Origin: a virus
Lineage: Duplodnaviria > Heunggongvirae > Uroviricota > Caudoviricetes
Strand: one strand, 5' to 3'
IMG/VR virus record: IMGVR_UViG_2778261298_000002
Location: 1-41,462 of that record
DNA length: 41,462 nucleotides
A program made the translations under genes and the position numbers. Below, piece by piece: positions 1-37,750 of this stretch; position 1 is the first letter of the stretch; every line of letters begins with the position of its first letter. The notes beneath the pieces were generated by a model that worked only from the letters and a program-made list of their open reading frames with translations, ran no database searches and was not told where the DNA came from.

Positions 1-2
1 CA

Positions 3-18
3 CTGTTTATCCATACAG
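3..18 (+). promoter_or_regulatory. LexA (SOS) box, distal copy
   Basis: CTGT-N8-ACAG palindrome (aCTGTttatccatACAGt) about 45 bp upstream of the dinI-like start. Confidence 0.5.
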
Positions 19-30
19 TTAAAAATAATG

Positions 31-46
31 CTGTATACAAACACAG
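31..46 (+). promoter_or_regulatory. LexA (SOS) box, proximal copy
   Basis: tgCTGTatacaaacACAGta closely matches the E. coli LexA consensus taCTGT-(AT)4-ACAGta; followed by RBS GGAGGG and ATG at 62. Confidence 0.7.
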
Positions 47-61
47 TATGGAGGGACTTTT

Positions 62-310
62 ATGCGTATTGAAATCTGCATAGCCAAAGAAAAAATGACT
101 AAAATGCCAACCGGTGCTGTGGATGCGTTAAAGGAAGAATTAACCCGACGCATCAGTAAGCGTTATGACGATGTTGAGGTGTTAGTAAAAGCCACCAGCA
201 ATGATGGCCTTTCTGTTACACGCACCGCAGATAAGGATTCTGCAAAAACTTTTGTTCAGGAGACTCTGAAAGATACCTGGGAATCTGCTGACGAGTGGTT
301 TGTTCACTAA
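62..310 (+). CDS. DinI-like DNA-damage-inducible protein (82 aa)
   Basis: Translation [11 protein letters not shown]...[15 protein letters not shown] matches the DinI family in size and conserved C-terminal ETWESADxWF motif; preceded by LexA boxes. Confidence 0.8.
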
Positions 311-23056: not shown

Positions 23057-24109
23057 TTATTTCCCCACCAGTTCACTTACCTCTTTCACCGTCTGATTAA
23101 ACCGCTCTGACTCAAGTTCAACACCTAACGCCCGACGCCCCAGCGCCATTGCTGCTTTTATTGTGGAACCGGATCCCATAAAGAAATCAGCAACCAGATC
23201 ACCAGGTCGACTACTGGCATTGATTATTTGCCGGAGCATATCCGCCGGTTTCTCGCACGGATGTTTACCCGGATAGAACTGAACGGGCTTATGCGTCCAG
23301 ACATCGGTATAAGGCACGGAAACTGATACGGAGAAATAGCGCCGGAGAGATTTAAACTCATCCAGCAATTCAGAATATTTGCGATTCAGTGAATCATAAG
23401 ATGCCACCAGCTGGTGGTGTGGTTGTTCCAGTTGTTGTTCCTGAAACTTCTCTGCCGCTATACGGGAAAACAGTGCCTGTAACTTCCGATAGTCAGCCTC
23501 ATTCGGCAACTGCCACTGACTGGCACCAAACCAGTGGGAAACCATATTTTTCTTACCTGTGGCTTCGGCAATTTGTTTTGCCGTTATACCCAGTTCGGCA
23601 CGAGCATCCCTGAAATACGATATCAGCGGTGCCATTATGTGCTGTTTGAGTTCCCTTTCTTTTGCCGCATAGCCGTCACTTTTGCCGCGATATGGCCCCT
23701 GGTAATGTTCAGCAAACAGAACGCGCTCTGTGGCAGGAAAATATGCGCGCAGACTTTCTTTATTACACCCATTCCAACGTCCGGACGGCTTCGCCCAGAT
23801 GATATGGTTAAGCACGTTGAAACGTTCACGCATCATGATCTCAATATCAGATGCCAGGCGATGCCCACAGAACAGGTAAAGGCTTCCGGCAGGTTTCAAC
23901 ACCCGCCAGAACTGGGCCAGACAGTGGTCCAGCCACTTAAGGTAATCTTCGTCCCCTTTCCACTGATTGTCCCAACCGTTAGGTTTCACCTTGAAGTAAG
24001 GCGGATCGGTAACAATCAGGTCAATGGAATCATCAGGCAGGGACTGAATAAAATGCAGGCAATCAGCGTTGATTAAATCAACACTGTTTATTTTTACAGT
24101 ATTTTTCAT
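23057..24109 (-). CDS. Orphan DNA methyltransferase (amino-MTase with DPPY motif)
   Basis: 350 aa; N-terminal IVTDPPY catalytic motif and C-terminal FxGSGST AdoMet motif; no adjacent restriction gene. Confidence 0.8.
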   Translation of the reverse strand: MKNTVKINSVDLINADCLHFIQSLPDDSIDLIVTDPPYFKVKPNGWDNQWKGDEDYLKWLDHCLAQFWRVLKPAGSLYLFCGHRLASDIEIMMRERFNVLNHIIWAKPSGRWNGCNKESLRAYFPATERVLFAEHYQGPYRGKSDGYAAKERELKQHIMAPLISYFRDARAELGITAKQIAEATGKKNMVSHWFGASQWQLPNEADYRKLQALFSRIAAEKFQEQQLEQPHHQLVASYDSLNRKYSELLDEFKSLRRYFSVSVSVPYTDVWTHKPVQFYPGKHPCEKPADMLRQIINASSRPGDLVADFFMGSGSTIKAAMALGRRALGVELESERFNQTVKEVSELVGK

Positions 24110-24259: not shown

Positions 24260-24487
24260 TTACTGGCAGCGTCTGAATTTATTCCCGTACCCGCCGTTAT
24301 CCTTCGCCAGACCCGCCAGAACTAACTGAGTCAGTATTAACTGGCACCGGGCTTCGCTTACTCCGGTAGTTCTCGTCATCATGCGTGGCGTTACCCACTT
24401 GTCAGCAGGTAAGAAATGAAGGACTGCGGCGGCGGTTTCTGTCATATCTTGCTGTTTTAGCATGTCTTTTTCCCTTCTGGTTAACAT
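24260..24487 (-). CDS. Hypothetical small protein (75 aa), possible winged-helix
   Basis: ORF between the late terminator and the methyltransferase; no family recognised. Confidence 0.35.
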   Translation of the reverse strand: MLTRREKDMLKQQDMTETAAAVLHFLPADKWVTPRMMTRTTGVSEARCQLILTQLVLAGLAKDNGGYGNKFRRCQ

Positions 24488-24715: not shown

Positions 24716-25474
24716 TTATCTCGTCACCTTTCTCAATTGCGTTTCAGCATATGCTTCTTCCTGCCAGCACTTTGTAACCAGTTTATCAATGACATCTGCA
24801 TATCCTTTGTACCACTGATAATCCGTCAGGTCTGGTACCAGCTTCTGGACATGATGCCGCGCCAGTGTGGTTGGTAAACGGCTAAACCGGTTTCCATTGC
24901 AACGCCCACAAATCTTATAAACAGGCGTGCCATGAAGCCGGGTCCTTTTTTCATCCAGGACAATACCTTTACCCTTACACCCTCTGCACGCTGTGCTGAC
25001 TTCTCCCTTACCATGACAATGCTGACATAGTTCCTTCACCCACTCTTCCTTGATAACAGATTCCCCGCTTCTGGAGTGTTTTACCACTTCGCGCAATACA
25101 TTATGAAATCCAGTACCAGCACAATGCTCACAGCGAGCCTTACTTGCCGCAGACCTGGAATAATCAGCAAAGGCAAAATTCACAAGGTAAGGGATGATCT
25201 GTAACCGGGTTTCTTCACTCAATTTATTCAATGTCGGGTTATCCAGTGCCATCGCGTAATTGAGCAGACCTTCAATCGCAAACTGAGGATCCTGAACACC
25301 AACTTTTGCCAGGAATAAGGCAAAACCCAGTGGTGCTTTCGACTGCACCATCCCCTGCGCAGCCATCACATCCGTAATCGTTAAACCACCAGAGCCTGTC
25401 GCCGGTGCGTCATCGCTCAATTTTGGAGATTTTGGGGAGTAATATTTTGGTAAGGCTTCAAGGTTCATGCTCAT
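24716..25474 (-). CDS. Late-gene antiterminator Q (zinc-finger type)
   Basis: 252 aa with four CxxC pairs (CEHCAGTG, CQHCHGKG, CRGCKGKG, CGRCNGN); placed before late promoter and terminator. Confidence 0.7.
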   Translation of the reverse strand: MSMNLEALPKYYSPKSPKLSDDAPATGSGGLTITDVMAAQGMVQSKAPLGFALFLAKVGVQDPQFAIEGLLNYAMALDNPTLNKLSEETRLQIIPYLVNFAFADYSRSAASKARCEHCAGTGFHNVLREVVKHSRSGESVIKEEWVKELCQHCHGKGEVSTACRGCKGKGIVLDEKRTRLHGTPVYKICGRCNGNRFSRLPTTLARHHVQKLVPDLTDYQWYKGYADVIDKLVTKCWQEEAYAETQLRKVTR

Positions 25475-27295: not shown

Positions 27296-27685
27296 TCAGG
27301 CGGCTGCACCCGCCGTTTTCTCGTACTTACTGATAGTGATCTCGACCTTCCCTTCCGGGATAACCGGTCCCCACTCCACCAGCATTCTTTTCACCTGACT
27401 GTCGTCTTCCCACACACCCGCGTGGGTCAGGGCGTCAAACAGCGCCTTGTTATAGTTGTCCAGATCGCGGATCCGGTTATCCGGAGGAAACAACACGATC
27501 TCCACTGAAGCAGGTGCCGACGTTGGTTTTGGCAGACGACGTAACTGCTCAACTATTGCTGCACACGCCGCGCTCTGGAATTTGCGCCCCGCCGCGCTTA
27601 TCAGGCTCTTACCTGCAAACGCCCCTTTGTTGGGGTGTCGCCAGTACGTGTTCACGCTGGGCGGGAAAGGCAGAATCAGCTTCAT
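27296..27685 (-). CDS. rusA: Holliday-junction resolvase RusA
   Basis: 129 aa; N-terminal LPFPPSVNTYWR and RDLDNYNKALFDALTHAGVWEDDSQV match the RusA family. Confidence 0.8.
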   Translation of the reverse strand: MKLILPFPPSVNTYWRHPNKGAFAGKSLISAAGRKFQSAACAAIVEQLRRLPKPTSAPASVEIVLFPPDNRIRDLDNYNKALFDALTHAGVWEDDSQVKRMLVEWGPVIPEGKVEITISKYEKTAGAAA

Positions 27686-28008
27686 ACTTTCAGACCCCTC
27701 TCATGTAACCAGTGGGCTGCACGCAGCCTGGCGTTTTCCTCACCGGCAAGCAGTGAGCGGATAATCCCGACCGCCTCGCTGTCGTCGTCCTTCACCGCGG
27801 TATGAAGCGTTATCCCCCGGGCCACACCACGCTTTATCGTGATGACGCCTTTTTTCTCCAGTGCGCGAAGATGCTCCACCGCTGCATTCACTGAACGATA
27901 TCCCAGCATGGTTGCCACCTCCTGATTGGTTGGCGGAAAGCCACGCTCTTTCTGGTAAGAAATCAGCATATCCAGCACCTGCTGCTGGCATTGAGTTAAC
28001 GTCGTCAT
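27682..28008 (-). CDS. LexA-like DNA-binding domain protein lacking the S24 peptidase domain
   Basis: 108 aa; LTQCQQQVLDMLISYQKERGFPPTNQEVATMLGYRSVNAAVEHLRALEKKGVI resembles the LexA N-terminal winged helix; no Ala-Gly/Ser-Lys autocleavage module. Confidence 0.6.
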   Translation of the reverse strand: MTTLTQCQQQVLDMLISYQKERGFPPTNQEVATMLGYRSVNAAVEHLRALEKKGVITIKRGVARGITLHTAVKDDDSEAVGIIRSLLAGEENARLRAAHWLHERGLKV

Positions 28009-28691
28009 GCCGCCATCTCCCTGACCAGTTTTTCCGCCTGCTGGCGAACCTGCGCCAGAAAGGCCTCACCACATGCCTCAAGTTCATCGCGCCCGATGTA
28101 GCTGATTGCCGGTCCCTTCCAGGTCTTGTCGAAAACAGCAATAGCACCAGCGAAGAAAGCGCCTGTCGGTACCTGCTTCTCGTCTTTCGGGATAAACCAG
28201 ACAGGCAGTTCAAAACCAATACGCCCGCGAATAAAAGCAATATGATCTGCATTTTCCGGCCACCACACTTCGCTGGTGGCAGCTTTGATCAGGAAAACAT
28301 AGCGCCCGCCTTTATCACGCATGGCACTGGCATGCTTCATGATGTAACGCATGCCGGTGATGTATTGCCCCTCATGCTGACTGGCGCGGCTGTATGGGGG
28401 ATTACCAAAGGCAGCACCTTTAAGCTCCGCAAGACGTTCTGACCAGTCATGCGCCAGCGCGTTGTCTTCCGCCGTGTAATACGCGGCACATTTGGCGTTA
28501 TCACCGTCAGTGAACAGATCCAGAACAAACGGGCCAAACAGGGTGTTAATTCCCCAGAAAATGTTGTCCGGCGTGCGCCACTGATCGCCCACTTCCTTCA
28601 GTTCATGGGCTGGTTTGTTCCGCAGTTCCACCAGCGCCTGGCAATATTTATTACTCATTAAGCCCCCACGTAATTCCCTGACAGATACCAC
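28005..28691 (-). CDS. Phage N6-adenine DNA methyltransferase (Dam-type, NPPY)
   Basis: 228 aa with FGNPPYSR catalytic motif. Confidence 0.75.
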   Translation of the reverse strand: MVSVRELRGGLMSNKYCQALVELRNKPAHELKEVGDQWRTPDNIFWGINTLFGPFVLDLFTDGDNAKCAAYYTAEDNALAHDWSERLAELKGAAFGNPPYSRASQHEGQYITGMRYIMKHASAMRDKGGRYVFLIKAATSEVWWPENADHIAFIRGRIGFELPVWFIPKDEKQVPTGAFFAGAIAVFDKTWKGPAISYIGRDELEACGEAFLAQVRQQAEKLVREMAA

Positions 28692-29152
28692 TCTTCACCC
28701 GATGCAGCGCGCTTGCTGCTTTTCCGTAAGCACCGCTCACGACGCGCCAGAAAATTGTTTCGCTCTTGCTGGGAGTGGCTTTCACGGAATGCCGCCATCC
28801 ACACCGTTGCAGCACGACGGTATAAGCCCCTGGACTCCAGTTCTTCCGCCTGGCGGGTCAGGCACAAAATCTCCCGCGGGTCGTTAGTGCCGACATAGAA
28901 ATTGCGCACAGGTCTGGTTTCACGAACTGGTTGCGGTTCCGCCTCCTGCGCTCTCTCAGTCAGGCGCGGGAAATGTCTGCGTGTATCCCCTTCACAACGG
29001 TGAGCCACACGACCACTCTGACGTAACTTGCTTGCTGACTGCAGAACGCGCTGCCGTGAGTAACCTGCAAAAGCATCCGCAATGTCTCCGGAAGTACACC
29101 CCGGATGGGCTTCAATGAATTTCTGAACTTCATTCAAAAGACTCATGATCAC
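28658..29152 (-). CDS. Hypothetical regulator (possibly ANR/PerC-like)
   Basis: 164 aa downstream of the replication gene; family assignment is a weak recollection. Confidence 0.35.
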   Translation of the reverse strand: MIMSLLNEVQKFIEAHPGCTSGDIADAFAGYSRQRVLQSASKLRQSGRVAHRCEGDTRRHFPRLTERAQEAEPQPVRETRPVRNFYVGTNDPREILCLTRQAEELESRGLYRRAATVWMAAFRESHSQQERNNFLARRERCLRKSSKRAASGEEWYLSGNYVGA

Positions 29153-31257: not shown

Positions 31258-31394
31258 AGCTTTCTCCTATCTGTAAGTAGTAAAGTTGTTGATAACTTCG
31301 ATTATACAACTACAACAACTTTCATCACAACTTTTAGATGTTGGAAAGCTAAAACATAAAGTTGTAACCTCAATAAAAACGAGGGGGATATGTT
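31258..31394. promoter_or_regulatory. Immunity operator/promoter region (OR-like) between cro-like and cI-like genes
   Basis: Repeated half-sites AAGTTGT/ACAACTT; minus-strand promoter TTGTGA-18-TATAAT (rc of 31325-31330 and 31301-31306) toward cro; plus-strand TTGATA at 31289-31294. Confidence 0.6.
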
Positions 31395-32081
31395 GTGAAA
31401 ACATTGGCAGAAAGACTAAAAAGCGAAAGAGAAAAAGCAGGAATGAGTCAGGCGCAACTAGCTGAAAAAATTGGGCTTTCACAACAATCCGTAGCGAAAA
31501 TCGAGAATGGAGAAACTCAACAGCCTCGGAAAATTAAAGAGATTGCTAAAGTGTTAGGGGTTTCTCAAAAGTGGTTGCAATTGGGCATTGAGGATAACGC
31601 GTCTTTCCCAGACCTTGTTGTAAAGGAGGCTGAAAGTACAGCATTAGATCCTGACATTTTTGCAAACATTCCAGTCCTAGATGTCGAGTTATCAGCGGGT
31701 AATGGATGTTTGGCTGAAATAGTTGAATCAACTGTAGACTGGTTCCCGCTAAGAAGGATTGATTTAAGAAAAGCTGGTGTATGTGTCTCCAATGCAAAGA
31801 TCGTAAAAATTTGGGGCAATAGTTTACTACCTGTACTTAACAATGGAGATTTTGTTGCTGTTGATGTTTCCCAAACGGTTCCTATTCGTGATGGGGATCT
31901 TTATGCCATACGTGATGGCGTATTACTTAGAGTTAAAATATTGATCAATTTACCTGACGGTGGTCTGATTCTAAGAAGTTTCAATAAAGATGAGTATCCA
32001 GATGAAATACTCACCTTCGAAGATAGGCGTTCAAGAATTCACGTTATAGGTAGAGTATTCTGGTCATCGCGCACTTGGTAA
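31395..32081 (+). CDS. CI-like repressor (HTH XRE domain plus S24 LexA-like peptidase domain), GTG start
   Basis: 228 aa; N-terminal HTH (MSQAQLAEKIGLSQQSVAKIENGE); C-terminal S24-like domain. Confidence 0.8.
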   Translation: MKTLAERLKSEREKAGMSQAQLAEKIGLSQQSVAKIENGETQQPRKIKEIAKVLGVSQKWLQLGIEDNASFPDLVVKEAESTALDPDIFANIPVLDVELSAGNGCLAEIVESTVDWFPLRRIDLRKAGVCVSNAKIVKIWGNSLLPVLNNGDFVAVDVSQTVPIRDGDLYAIRDGVLLRVKILINLPDGGLILRSFNKDEYPDEILTFEDRRSRIHVIGRVFWSSRTW

Positions 32082-36833: not shown

Positions 36834-37750
36834 GCAAGATTGACTATCAGGCACTGCGTGAAGCGGCGCAACTGGCAACACAGGGTGAATGGGTCGCATT
36901 TATTTCGTCTGGTACTGGTACATATGCGGTGCATACACCTGGTGATAAACGATGTGAAGACGTTATCAAATGGACCGGCTTTGATGGACAGAACAACGCA
37001 GAGAACAACGCTCGTTATATCGCAGCTTTCAACCCTGAAGTAGTGCAGGCGCTGCTGGATGAACGGGAAAGAAACCAGCAATACATCAAACGCCGCGACC
37101 AGGAGAACGAGGATATTGCGCTAACGGTAGGGAAACTGCGTGTTGAGCTTGAGGAAGCAAAATCAAAACTCAACGAGCAACGCGAGTATTACGAAGGTGT
37201 TATCTCGGATGGGGGTAAGCGTATTGCTGAACTGGAAAAACAATGCGCCGAATGGGAGCGAAAAGCATTAAGCAACTGTGAAGAGTGTGCTGCGATGGCT
37301 GAACGTATCGAAGAGATGCAGACAAAATCTGCGCCAGATTCGTTTGGCATCATCGGTGAAAATATTCGAACACAGGACAATCGAATAACGTCAGATCCCA
37401 TGTTTTGTGTGTATCAAAAGCGCGAAATCGTTGTTGATGCTGATTATGACCATGACCGGATTGTCTGGGTTGACGAAGATGGCAATGAAGCCAATAAACG
37501 CCATAGTCGTCGTCTCGAGCTACTTCATGAAAACTTTCGAGAGCCACCAGAAAAATGGCGGCGCGTTGCTGTGAAAGATATTGATGAATTCGTTACCTGC
37601 TGTTTCACCGAACAGGGTTGTAAAGACTACCTGGCAGTCAATGGTCACAATCTTCGCTTGCCATTTATATATGTAAAAAGCGGTTTCAGGAACGCTGAAT
37701 ATATCGGCATAAGAAACTGGCTTGCTGGCATTCGCATCAAAGGAGAGTGA
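36830..37750 (+). CDS. ead/Ea22-like protein
   Basis: 306 aa; N-terminal MSKIDYQALREAAQLATQGEW motif and central coiled-coil. Confidence 0.6.
   Translation: MSKIDYQALREAAQLATQGEWVAFISSGTGTYAVHTPGDKRCEDVIKWTGFDGQNNAENNARYIAAFNPEVVQALLDERERNQQYIKRRDQENEDIALTVGKLRVELEEAKSKLNEQREYYEGVISDGGKRIAELEKQCAEWERKALSNCEECAAMAERIEEMQTKSAPDSFGIIGENIRTQDNRITSDPMFCVYQKREIVVDADYDHDRIVWVDEDGNEANKRHSRRLELLHENFREPPEKWRRVAVKDIDEFVTCCFTEQGCKDYLAVNGHNLRLPFIYVKSGFRNAEYIGIRNWLAGIRIKGE

What the first reader, a model, noticed from the sequence alone, without database searches (positions are those of the whole stretch)
27682..28008. LexA DNA-binding-domain-only protein in the nin region
The 108-aa protein resembles the LexA N-terminal winged helix but has no autocleavage domain. 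A non-cleavable LexA-like binder could occupy SOS boxes during DNA damage and decouple selected genes from host SOS control. The dinI-like gene at the other end of the element carries tandem LexA boxes.
Basis: partly seen in the sequence, partly recalled or inferred. Interest (0 to 1): 0.5.

Follow-up and report, generated by a model that had tools for sequence, protein, structure and literature searches.

The report
Uncleavable LexA look-alike in prophage
This common E. coli prophage gene encodes the DNA-binding half of the SOS repressor LexA joined to a small helical tail instead of the self-cleaving domain, so it probably keeps or puts DNA-damage genes back under repression after the host's own LexA is destroyed, though nobody has tested this.

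Summary
ORF 27682-28008 (minus strand, 108 aa) is a full-length LexA DNA-binding domain (Pfam E=2.9e-19; 1.0 Å rmsd to DNA-bound E. coli LexA). It has no S24 peptidase domain.

It lies in the pR delayed-early operon between a Dam methylase and RusA, with ATGA start/stop overlaps at both ends.

Residues 74-103 form a conserved two-helix hairpin, which probably replaces the LexA dimerisation domain.
- **The gene is functional.** dN/dS is about 0.1.
- **It is common.** It occurs in 2233 of 5426 complete E. coli genomes, in SfV, SfII, mEp460 and Stx2 phages, and at 40-50% identity in prophages of other Enterobacteriaceae, always in the same nin position.
- **The recognition helix is LexA-like.** Four of the five LexA base-contacting residues are kept family-wide. 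Glu44 is never kept.

Best reading (about 0.45): a RecA-insensitive repressor that binds SOS boxes, made after induction.

The link to dinI is not fixed. The two genes assort independently in coliphages, yet sit next to each other in Klebsiella prophages.

Databases already annotate the family by homology. I found no functional study. The nearest precedent, GIL01 gp6, is an activator with changed specificity.

The parts
27682..28008 (-). Gene for the 108-aa LexA-NTD-plus-hairpin protein
   Evidence: ORF; PF01726 E=2.9e-19; PHROG 362 E=1.4e-59; dN/dS 0.09-0.14
27802..28008 (-). Residues 1-69: winged helix-turn-helix (H6-22, H28-35, H40-52, strands 56-58 and 66-68)
   Evidence: AF2 pLDDT about 90 with the 62-sequence alignment; 1.0 Å rmsd to 3jso_B
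27853..27891 (-). Recognition helix, residues 40-52 (VNAAVEHLRALEK). With S39 it carries LexA contact residues S39, N41, A42 and E45; V44 replaces E44
   Evidence: Alignment to E. coli LexA; contact residues from PMC3091678; family frequencies
27700..27789 (-). Residues 74-103: conserved two-helix hairpin (H74-87, H93-103), the proposed dimerisation module. Residues 80-90 are still alignable to the LexA hinge and cleavage-site region (A88-G89 opposite LexA A84-G85)
   Evidence: AF2 pLDDT 87-90; L86, L87, A93, R96, A97, L101, E103, R104 invariant in A2; tail kept at 40-50% identity; tail dN/dS 0.20
28005..28691 (-). Upstream gene: phage Dam-type N6-adenine methyltransferase. Its stop overlaps the LexA-NTD start (GCATGA)
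   Evidence: PF05869 E=7.8e-46; sequence
27296..27685 (-). Downstream gene: RusA resolvase. Its start overlaps the LexA-NTD stop (ATGA)
   Evidence: PF05866 E=6e-15; sequence
28658..29152 (-). PerC-like gene, the conserved upstream neighbour in all subfamilies
   Evidence: PF06069 E=2e-9; contexts
31301..31330 (-). pR-like promoter (TTGTGA-18-TATAAT). It is the only strong promoter-like site upstream on this strand, so the gene is read as a delayed-early lytic gene
   Evidence: consensus scan only
31395..32081 (+). Phage CI repressor with S24 autocleavage domain. The LexA-NTD protein is therefore not the immunity repressor
   Evidence: HTH_3 plus Peptidase_S24
3..46 (+). Two canonical SOS boxes (CTGTTTATCCATACAG, CTGTATACAAACACAG) ahead of the dinI-like gene; candidate targets
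   Evidence: the same arrangement in mEp460, where the annotated promoter overlaps the distal box
62..310 (+). DinI-like gene
   Evidence: PF06183 E=1.1e-19
24084..24099 (.). Near-consensus SOS box TACTGTAAAAATAAACAGTG inside codons 3-8 of the N6_N4 DNA methylase gene (23057-24109, minus strand) just downstream of Q; candidate target
   Evidence: conserved in SfV, mEp460 and 18 IMG/VR loci

Best explanation
The gene encodes a RecA-insensitive LexA mimic. Shown: it is a LexA winged-helix DNA-binding domain with the gamma-proteobacterial type of recognition helix. It lacks the S24 Ser/Lys protease domain and carries instead a conserved 30-residue helical hairpin. It is under purifying selection and sits, translationally coupled, in the pR delayed-early (nin) operon of a lambdoid prophage that has its own cleavable CI. 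Inferred: two copies pair through the hairpin, probably as a small four-helix bundle. This would replace the dimerisation normally supplied by the LexA C-terminal domain, and the dimer would bind CTGT-N8-ACAG-type SOS boxes. The protein cannot self-cleave, and its C-terminus does not end in the VAA-type ClpX tag that cleavage exposes on the LexA fragment. It would therefore persist while host LexA is destroyed. Made only after CI cleavage turns on pR, it would re-close SOS-box promoters in the induced cell. Targets in the phage would be the dinI-like gene and the methylase box. Host targets would be the SOS regulon: error-prone polymerases, SOS toxins, colicin lysis genes, and LexA-controlled antirepressors of co-resident prophages. 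That would favour clean, undisturbed phage production.
For: - Domain identity and fold.
- No protease domain.
- Contact residues: LexA uses S39, N41, A42, E44 and E45 (PMC3091678). In 168 tail-bearing family representatives S39 is 100%, N41 99%, A42 90%, E/D45 90% and H46 87%. Wing residues G61, R64, G65 and I66 are invariant.
- Tail: conserved to 40% identity and predicted as a hairpin at pLDDT 87-90.
- Selection: dN/dS 0.09-0.14 overall, NTD 0.10, tail 0.20.
- Operon position and coupling.
- Own cleavable CI.
- Conserved synteny (PerC, optional MTase, LexA-NTD, RusA, KilA-N/Ant, DUF968, Q) across E. coli, Citrobacter, Cronobacter, Kosakonia, Klebsiella and Enterobacter.
- SOS-related neighbourhood: in Klebsiella, dinI with a consensus SOS-box promoter lies directly upstream. 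In Enterobacter L029 a TTGCAA-17-AATAAT promoter plus SOS box heads orf97 then the LexA-NTD gene, with no terminator-like site between. In six E. coli loci an SOS-box promoter sits 0.4 kb downstream, ahead of KilA-N.
- Literature: the free LexA NTD still binds SOS boxes and represses, and must be degraded by ClpXP for SOS induction (PMC10584840).
- From my own knowledge, not checked here: fusing the LexA DBD (1-87) to a heterologous dimeriser such as the Jun zipper restores strong repression.
Against: - No binding or expression data exist.
- Glu44, one of the five listed LexA contact residues, is never retained in the family (A, V, N, F, L or T), and position 40 varies. Specificity or affinity may therefore differ from LexA.
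- Some subfamilies have also lost E45: Klebsiella has SSSNAVLLH, Citrobacter P0088 has SVNTIAGH.
- The one characterised phage LexA-NTD protein, GIL01 gp6, evolved a different site and activates.
- Dimerisation through the tail is inferred only.
- No SOS box lies within the nin operon of this window.
- In Klebsiella, a terminator-like hairpin (L009 7034-7066) may separate dinI from the homologue.
Confidence: 0.45

Rival explanations
1. A phage-specific transcription factor with shifted specificity, like gp6. The LexA fold has been re-targeted to a phage or host site that is not the canonical SOS box, where it represses or activates a particular promoter.
For: - GIL01 gp6 precedent: a truncated LexA homologue that binds GaCACAnnTGTGaC and activates late promoter P3.
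- Family-wide loss of E44, and divergence at positions 40, 43 and 45 in some subfamilies.
- Many phages of unrelated hosts carry LexA-DBD-only proteins.
Against: - S39, N41, A42, E45 and H46 are kept at 87-100%, which is hard to explain if the target had moved far from CTGT.
- Late transcription here is already handled by Q.
- No conserved non-SOS palindrome was noticed next to the gene, and no upstream intergenic region exists for autoregulation.
- No Bacillus or tectivirus hit appeared in the phage search, so it is not a gp6 orthologue.
Confidence: 0.27
2. A DNA-binding accessory of the neighbouring DNA-transaction enzymes (Dam-type methylase, RusA, DUF968/HNH), or a general architectural protein of replicating phage DNA, with no role in SOS control.
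For: - Tight translational coupling to Dam and RusA.
- A methyltransferase of a different family (PF02086) occupies the same upstream slot in Kosakonia.
- Constant co-occurrence with DUF968.
Against: - The methylase is absent in Citrobacter, some E. coli, Klebsiella and Enterobacter contexts, and RusA is absent in Klebsiella.
- Base-contacting residues of a sequence-specific repressor are conserved, which a non-specific binder would not need.
Confidence: 0.12
3. A pseudo-substrate or decoy. The tail keeps a remnant of the LexA cleavage-site loop (LLAGEE opposite VAAGEP) and interferes with RecA*-stimulated cleavage of LexA, CI or UmuD.
For: HMMER and MAFFT align residues 80-90 to the LexA hinge and cleavage region, with A88-G89 opposite A84-G85.
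Against: - The Ala-Gly pair is not conserved: LLANEE and LLVGEE occur in close relatives, and MIDDQP, LLACSV and LMADTP in distant ones.
- The segment is predicted helical, not the strand-loop seen in LexA.
Confidence: 0.04
4. A decaying fragment of a captured lexA gene with no function.
For: Truncated architecture; scattered frameshifted or fused variants in databases (P0001, P0030, P0070).
Against: - dN/dS is about 0.1 on both halves.
- Constant length of 105-135 aa.
- Conserved tail and synteny across genera.
- Present in 41% of complete E. coli genomes.
Confidence: 0.02

Closest known systems
E. coli LexA (SOS repressor), N-terminal domain
   Same: Same winged-helix fold (1.0 Å rmsd, 50-52% identity over 66-68 residues). 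The recognition helix RSxNAAxEHLxAL is shared, with S39, N41, A42 and E45. Wing residues G61, R64, G65 and I66 are shared. Homology extends through the hinge to the cleavage-site region.
   Different: No Peptidase_S24 domain, and no Ser119/Lys156 dyad, so no RecA*-stimulated autocleavage. The C-terminal dimerisation domain is replaced by a 30-residue helical hairpin. E44 becomes V, P40 becomes V, and the wing has K59 and R60. It is phage-encoded in a lytic operon, not autoregulated from an SOS box in this window, and scores below the TIGR00498 cutoff.
GIL01 gp6 (Bacillus thuringiensis tectivirus; PMC6182141)
   Same: A phage-encoded, truncated LexA homologue consisting essentially of the DNA-binding domain. 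It is made early in lytic development in a phage whose biology is tied to host LexA.
   Different: gp6 ends after the wing and has no helical tail. It binds its own palindrome at -43.5 of the late promoter and activates transcription. It belongs to a Gram-positive LexA lineage and to a different genome type. No sequence hit links the two in the phage database search.
Non-cleavable LexA(Ind-) mutants and stabilised LexA NTD fragments
   Same: The expected phenotype is the same: SOS boxes stay occupied despite RecA activation. The free NTD is known to retain binding and repression, and must be removed by ClpXP (PMC10584840).
   Different: Those are laboratory mutants or transient cleavage products of the host protein. 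This is a natural, selected, mobile gene with its own oligomerisation module and lytic-phase expression.
Engineered LexA-DBD(1-87)-leucine-zipper fusions (bacterial and yeast two-hybrid tools; from my own knowledge, not checked here)
   Same: The architecture is a LexA DBD plus a short heterologous helical dimeriser, which is enough to restore operator binding.
   Different: Artificial constructs. The natural tail is a helix-turn-helix hairpin, not a zipper, and its dimerisation is unproven.
DinI and PsiB (SOS dampeners carried by prophages and plasmids)
   Same: Mobile-element genes expected to turn the SOS response down. DinI is encoded in the same prophage, and in Klebsiella directly next to the homologue.
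   Different: DinI and PsiB act on the RecA filament, not on DNA. There is no sequence or structural relationship.

Membership tests
LexA repressor proper (TIGR00498 equivalog) | N-terminal LexA-type winged-helix DNA-binding domain | tested here: met
   PF01726 69 bits, E=2.9e-19, full length; 1.0 Å rmsd to 3jso
LexA repressor proper (TIGR00498 equivalog) | C-terminal Peptidase_S24 domain with Ser/Lys catalytic dyad | tested here: not met
   No S24 hit. The protein ends at residue 108, and the TIGR00498 match covers only profile positions 1-91 of 203
LexA repressor proper (TIGR00498 equivalog) | Score above the curated whole-protein cutoff | tested here: not met
   70.8 bits against a cutoff of 110.95
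LexA repressor proper (TIGR00498 equivalog) | Conserved Ala-Gly scissile bond in the hinge | tested here: inconclusive
   A88-G89 aligns with LexA A84-G85. Relatives have AN, VG or unrelated residues there, and there is no protease to cut it
LexA repressor proper (TIGR00498 equivalog) | Binds CTGT-N8-ACAG SOS boxes and represses | not testable with these tools
   Only indirect: 4 of 5 contact residues are conserved
Pfam LexA_DNA_bind (PF01726) domain family / PHROG 362 | Profile match above the gathering threshold | tested here: met
   (PHROG 362 E=1.4e-59, 1-108 on 1-106/106)
Enterobacterial prophage 'LexA-NTD + helical hairpin' family (defined here) | LexA NTD followed by the conserved tail motif (hydrophobic-hydrophobic-R-x-L-L ... 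A-R-x-R-A-x-x-x-L-x-x-R-G), 105-135 aa | tested here: met
   Alignments A2, A3 and A5; 168 representatives
Enterobacterial prophage 'LexA-NTD + helical hairpin' family (defined here) | Position in the nin region of lambdoid prophages: after PerC-like (with or without a methylase), before RusA and/or DUF968 and Q | tested here: met
   Window and loci L004-L012 and L029
GIL01 gp6-type late-gene activators | Sequence relationship to gp6 or tectiviral homologues | tested here: not met
   tblastn against 50,697 phage records gave only enterobacterial hits. A tectiviral LexA-DBD protein appears only as a weak fold match (rank 15, E=4e-3)
GIL01 gp6-type late-gene activators | Binding site overlapping the -35 of a late promoter; activation of late genes | not testable with these tools
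   Late genes here are preceded by Q and a tR'-like terminator. No candidate site was identified

The most novel reading that the evidence does not exclude
A large, unstudied family of prophage-encoded, RecA-proof LexA mimics is carried by about 40% of E. coli genomes, including Stx2 phages, and by Klebsiella, Enterobacter, Cronobacter, Salmonella and Citrobacter prophages. These proteins would re-impose repression on the SOS regulon once a prophage has committed to lysis. In the Enterobacter-type arrangement they are themselves SOS-induced and would form a negative feedback loop. The result would be to switch off error-prone polymerases, SOS toxins, colicin lysis and, notably, the LexA-controlled antirepressors of rival prophages. 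The first prophage to fire would then silence its competitors, and it would shape SOS-dependent mutagenesis and toxin-phage induction in pathogens.
Probability: 0.3. Interest if true: 0.72.

Novelty: new variant of a known kind. Interest (0 to 1): 0.5.

Why it matters
The SOS response drives mutagenesis, persistence, the spread of antibiotic resistance and the induction of Shiga-toxin phages. If a gene present in roughly two of five E. coli genomes (2233 of 5426), and in clinically important Stx2 and serotype-converting Shigella phages, encodes a repressor that RecA cannot inactivate, three things follow. SOS output in lysogens or induced cells would be partly under phage control. Competition between prophages in polylysogens would have a simple molecular weapon. 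And there would be a natural example of how a LexA DNA-binding domain can work with a minimal dimeriser. The hypothesis can be tested directly with a gel shift and a lexA(Def) reporter strain.

Tried and rejected
- **Homodimer prediction.** I fused two copies with a Gly-Ser linker for AF2.
- **Literature.** Searches for any study of this enterobacterial family returned only the GIL01 gp6 paper and general LexA papers. Terms tried included LexA-like with prophage, RusA, nin, Stx and PF01726. The LexA-DNA structure paper (PMC2921665) and Neher et al. 2003 (PMC196044) are not held. Detailed base contacts of E44 and the VAA degron therefore rest on secondary citations or on my memory.
- **A fixed functional pair with dinI.** Rejected. 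In 50,697 phage records the gene occurs in 61 and dinI-like genes in 133, with only partial overlap, and SfV lacks dinI in the 27.6 kb examined.
- **A role as the immunity repressor.** Rejected. A separate HTH_3 + S24 CI gene is present.
- **An internal promoter for the gene.** The SfV record annotates a dam promoter. The consensus scan found none on the coding strand between pR and the gene.
- **L025 (Robbsia).** It has an SOS box 39 bp upstream of a homologue, but that turned out to be the genuine full-length, autoregulated lexA and is irrelevant.
- **The CTGT-N8-ACAG match at 37600-37615.** It has a G+C-rich spacer inside an Ea22-like ORF, and I treat it as chance.

Full report
**1. The observation**

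The window holds an ATG-to-stop ORF of 108 codons at exactly 27682-28008 on the minus strand.
- It matches Pfam LexA_DNA_bind over the whole profile (residues 1-65, 69 bits, E=2.9e-19).
- It matches only the first 91 of 203 positions of the NCBIfam lexA equivalog, below that model's cutoff.
- It matches PHROG 362, 'transcriptional repressor', end to end (E=1.4e-59).
- There is no Peptidase_S24 match.
- phmmer against the PDB aligns residues 2-69 with the E. coli LexA DNA-binding domain (1lea, E=7e-16). It continues with lower confidence through the hinge to LexA residue 86.
- AF2 models give three helices and a two-stranded wing (pLDDT about 90 with a 62-sequence alignment). These superpose on LexA in its DNA complex (3jso) at 1.0 Å over 66 residues with 52% identity.

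The side claims also hold.
- The gene lies between an O-like replication gene and Q, among PerC-like, Dam, RusA, KilA-N and DUF968 genes.
- A DinI-family gene at 62-310 is preceded by two CTGT-N8-ACAG boxes at 3-18 and 31-46. The window has four such matches against 0.47 expected.

**2.

Residues 70-108 are not junk. After a low-confidence linker (69-75), both AF2 runs predict a helical hairpin, H74-87 and H93-103. With the deeper alignment the pLDDT there is 87-90.

The motif (I/L)(I/L)RxLL...ARxRAxxxLxxRG is invariant or nearly so in close relatives. It is still recognisable at 40-50% identity in Cronobacter, Kosakonia, Klebsiella, Enterobacter, Salmonella, Atlantibacter and Leclercia proteins of 105-135 aa.

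Nei-Gojobori dN/dS is 0.09-0.14 for the gene, 0.10 for the NTD and 0.20 for the tail. Both parts are under purifying selection.

Residues 80-90 still align with the LexA hinge and cleavage-site region, with A88-G89 opposite A84-G85. This suggests descent from a full lexA truncated just past the cleavage site. The Ala-Gly pair is not conserved among relatives, so it is a relic rather than a functional site.

**3. Genomic and population context**

Start and stop codons overlap those of Dam and RusA as ATGA. The only strong promoter-like site upstream on the coding strand is the pR-like one at 31330-31301. The phage has its own HTH_3 + S24 CI.

The gene is therefore a delayed-early lytic gene, made after CI cleavage, and it is not the immunity repressor.

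The same cassette occurs at 97-100% identity in several phage groups with different virion modules:
- SfV (orf42, 'unknown'), SfII and SfIV
- mEp460 and cdtI
- Stx2a_1447/WGPS2, fifteen Stx2c phages and others

It is present in 2233 of 5426 complete E. coli genomes, with up to four copies. PGAP calls it 'LexA family transcriptional regulator'.

At 42-66% identity the synteny persists: PerC-like, then an optional methylase (Dam PF05869, or the unrelated D12 class PF02086 in Kosakonia), then LexA-NTD, then RusA, KilA-N or Ant, DUF968 and Q.

**4. Does it look like an SOS-box binder?**

The E. coli LexA residues that contact DNA are S39, N41, A42, E44 and E45 in helix 3 (PMC3091678). The window protein has S39, N41, A42, V44 and E45.

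Among 168 tail-bearing representatives:

| Position | Residue frequency |
|---|---|
| S39 | 100% |
| N41 | 99% |
| A42 | 90% |
| E/D45 | 90% |
| H46 | 87% |
| 44 | never Glu (A, V, N, F, L or T) |

Wing residues G61, R64, G65 and I66 are invariant.

This pattern fits continued recognition of a CTGT-like half-site. It also shows a systematic, family-defining change at one contact position, so identical specificity cannot be assumed. Two subfamilies have in addition lost E45: Klebsiella (SSSNAVLLH) and Citrobacter P0088 (SVNTIAGH).

Published work states that the free LexA NTD retains SOS-box binding and repression, and has to be removed by ClpXP for SOS induction (PMC10584840). From my own knowledge, attaching any dimeriser to LexA 1-87 restores strong repression. 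The hairpin is the obvious candidate for that role, but I could not model a dimer.

**5. SOS flavour of the neighbourhood**

Canonical boxes were scanned in 102 related loci totalling 1.64 Mb.
- **Klebsiella prophages.** A consensus box (TACTGTTTATTTATACAGTA) overlaps a TTGAAC-17-TACTGT promoter of a dinI gene that lies about 350 bp upstream of the homologue. A terminator-like hairpin at L009 7034-7066 may separate the two units.
- **An Enterobacter prophage.** A TTGCAA-17-AATAAT promoter plus box heads orf97, then LexA-NTD, then RusA, with no terminator-like site between them. There the gene is probably itself SOS-induced.
- **Six E. coli loci.** An SOS-box promoter sits between RusA and the KilA-N gene.
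- **This window.** No box lies inside the nin operon. The candidates are the dinI boxes and a near-consensus box within codons 3-8 of the N6_N4 methylase downstream of Q.

The gene occurs in 61 phage records and dinI-like genes in 133, with partial overlap. SfV lacks dinI in the region examined.

**6. Mechanism and rivals**

- **Best reading, confidence about 0.45.** A hairpin-dimerised LexA mimic that RecA* and ClpXP cannot remove. It is produced from pR after induction and re-occupies SOS boxes while host LexA is gone.
  - Shown: fold, domain loss, tail conservation, selection, operon position.
  - Inferred: dimerisation, site specificity, the repressive outcome and the benefit. The benefit could be suppression of error-prone polymerases, SOS toxins, colicin lysis or rival prophages' LexA-controlled antirepressors.
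- **Main rival, about 0.27.** A gp6-like re-targeted regulator. GIL01 gp6 is a truncated LexA homologue that binds its own palindrome and activates the late promoter.
- **Minor rivals.** An accessory DNA-binding factor for the adjacent methylase, resolvase or nuclease genes (0.12). A cleavage-site decoy (0.04). A dead fragment (0.02, contradicted by selection and prevalence).

**7. Comparison with what is known, and novelty**

It works like a non-cleavable LexA or a stabilised LexA NTD. It is not a member of the LexA equivalog family, because the protease domain and the score cutoff both fail. It is a member of the PF01726 domain family and of PHROG 362.

LexA-DBD-only proteins are widespread in phages of many hosts, and one of them, gp6, has been characterised. 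The enterobacterial NTD-plus-hairpin architecture, its nin-operon position and its likely anti-SOS role have not been described in any paper I could find. Databases already annotate the gene by homology.

I rate it a new variant of a known kind. Interest is 0.5. The biology is plausible rather than astonishing, but the family is very common, it sits in medically relevant phages, and the hypothesis can be tested directly.

Noticed in passing
window 24084-24099 (inside ORF 23057-24109, minus strand): A near-consensus SOS box (TACTGTAAAAATAAACAGTG) lies within codons 3-8 of an N6_N4 DNA methylase gene. That gene sits between Q/tR' and the holin, the slot that holds stx in Stx phages. The box is conserved in SfV, mEp460 and 18 IMG/VR loci, and degenerate in Stx2a_1447. 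Its function is unknown; it could be a LexA roadblock or an SOS-controlled moron.
   Followed up: partly
L003 (mEp460) 31972-31991; L002 (Stx2a_1447) 25247-25266; 29 of 102 related loci: A perfect SOS box (TACTGTTTTTACATACAGTA or TACTGTATATAAAAACAGTA) lies inside the coding sequence of the S24-type CI repressor of one immunity type, about 170-180 nt from the cI start. This window's cI lacks it.
   Followed up: no
L007 8750-8769 and five IMG/VR loci (offset +766 from the LexA-NTD start): In some E. coli prophages the KilA-N gene just downstream of RusA has its own TTGAAT-16-TACTGT promoter overlapped by a consensus SOS box. This resembles LexA-controlled antirepressor genes.
   Followed up: partly
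L009 574-2542 (Klebsiella prophage): An AAA_15/AAA_21 ATPase followed by a DUF4435 protein lies a few kb from the dinI and LexA-NTD genes. The pair looks like a PARIS-type (AriA/AriB) defence system.
   Followed up: no
proteins P0156, P0160, P0164: Proteins of about 160 aa consist of two tandem LexA DNA-binding domains and no protease domain. They would be single-chain 'pseudo-dimers', another way of dispensing with the LexA C-terminal domain.
   Followed up: no
L012 6125-6991 against window 28005-28691: The slot directly upstream of the LexA-NTD gene is filled by non-homologous adenine methyltransferases in different genera: PF05869 Dam in E. coli and Cronobacter, PF02086 D12 class in Kosakonia. 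In others it is empty.
   Followed up: partly
window 1-60: The window starts inside the dinI-like promoter region. In mEp460 the annotated promoter overlaps the distal box, and the integrase lies immediately upstream. The integrase of this prophage is therefore probably just outside the left edge of the window.
   Followed up: partly
window 24260-24463 (minus strand): A small ORF (67 aa, MLKQQDMTETAAAVLHFLPADKWVTPRMMTRTTGVSEARCQL...) sits between the tR'-like terminator and the methylase, corresponding to SfV orf47. It was not analysed.
   Followed up: no
proteins P0001, P0021, P0092, P0098: Rare database variants fuse the LexA-NTD ORF in frame to the N-terminus of the O-like replication protein or to Dam. 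They are presumably deletions or frameshifts in individual prophages.
   Followed up: no
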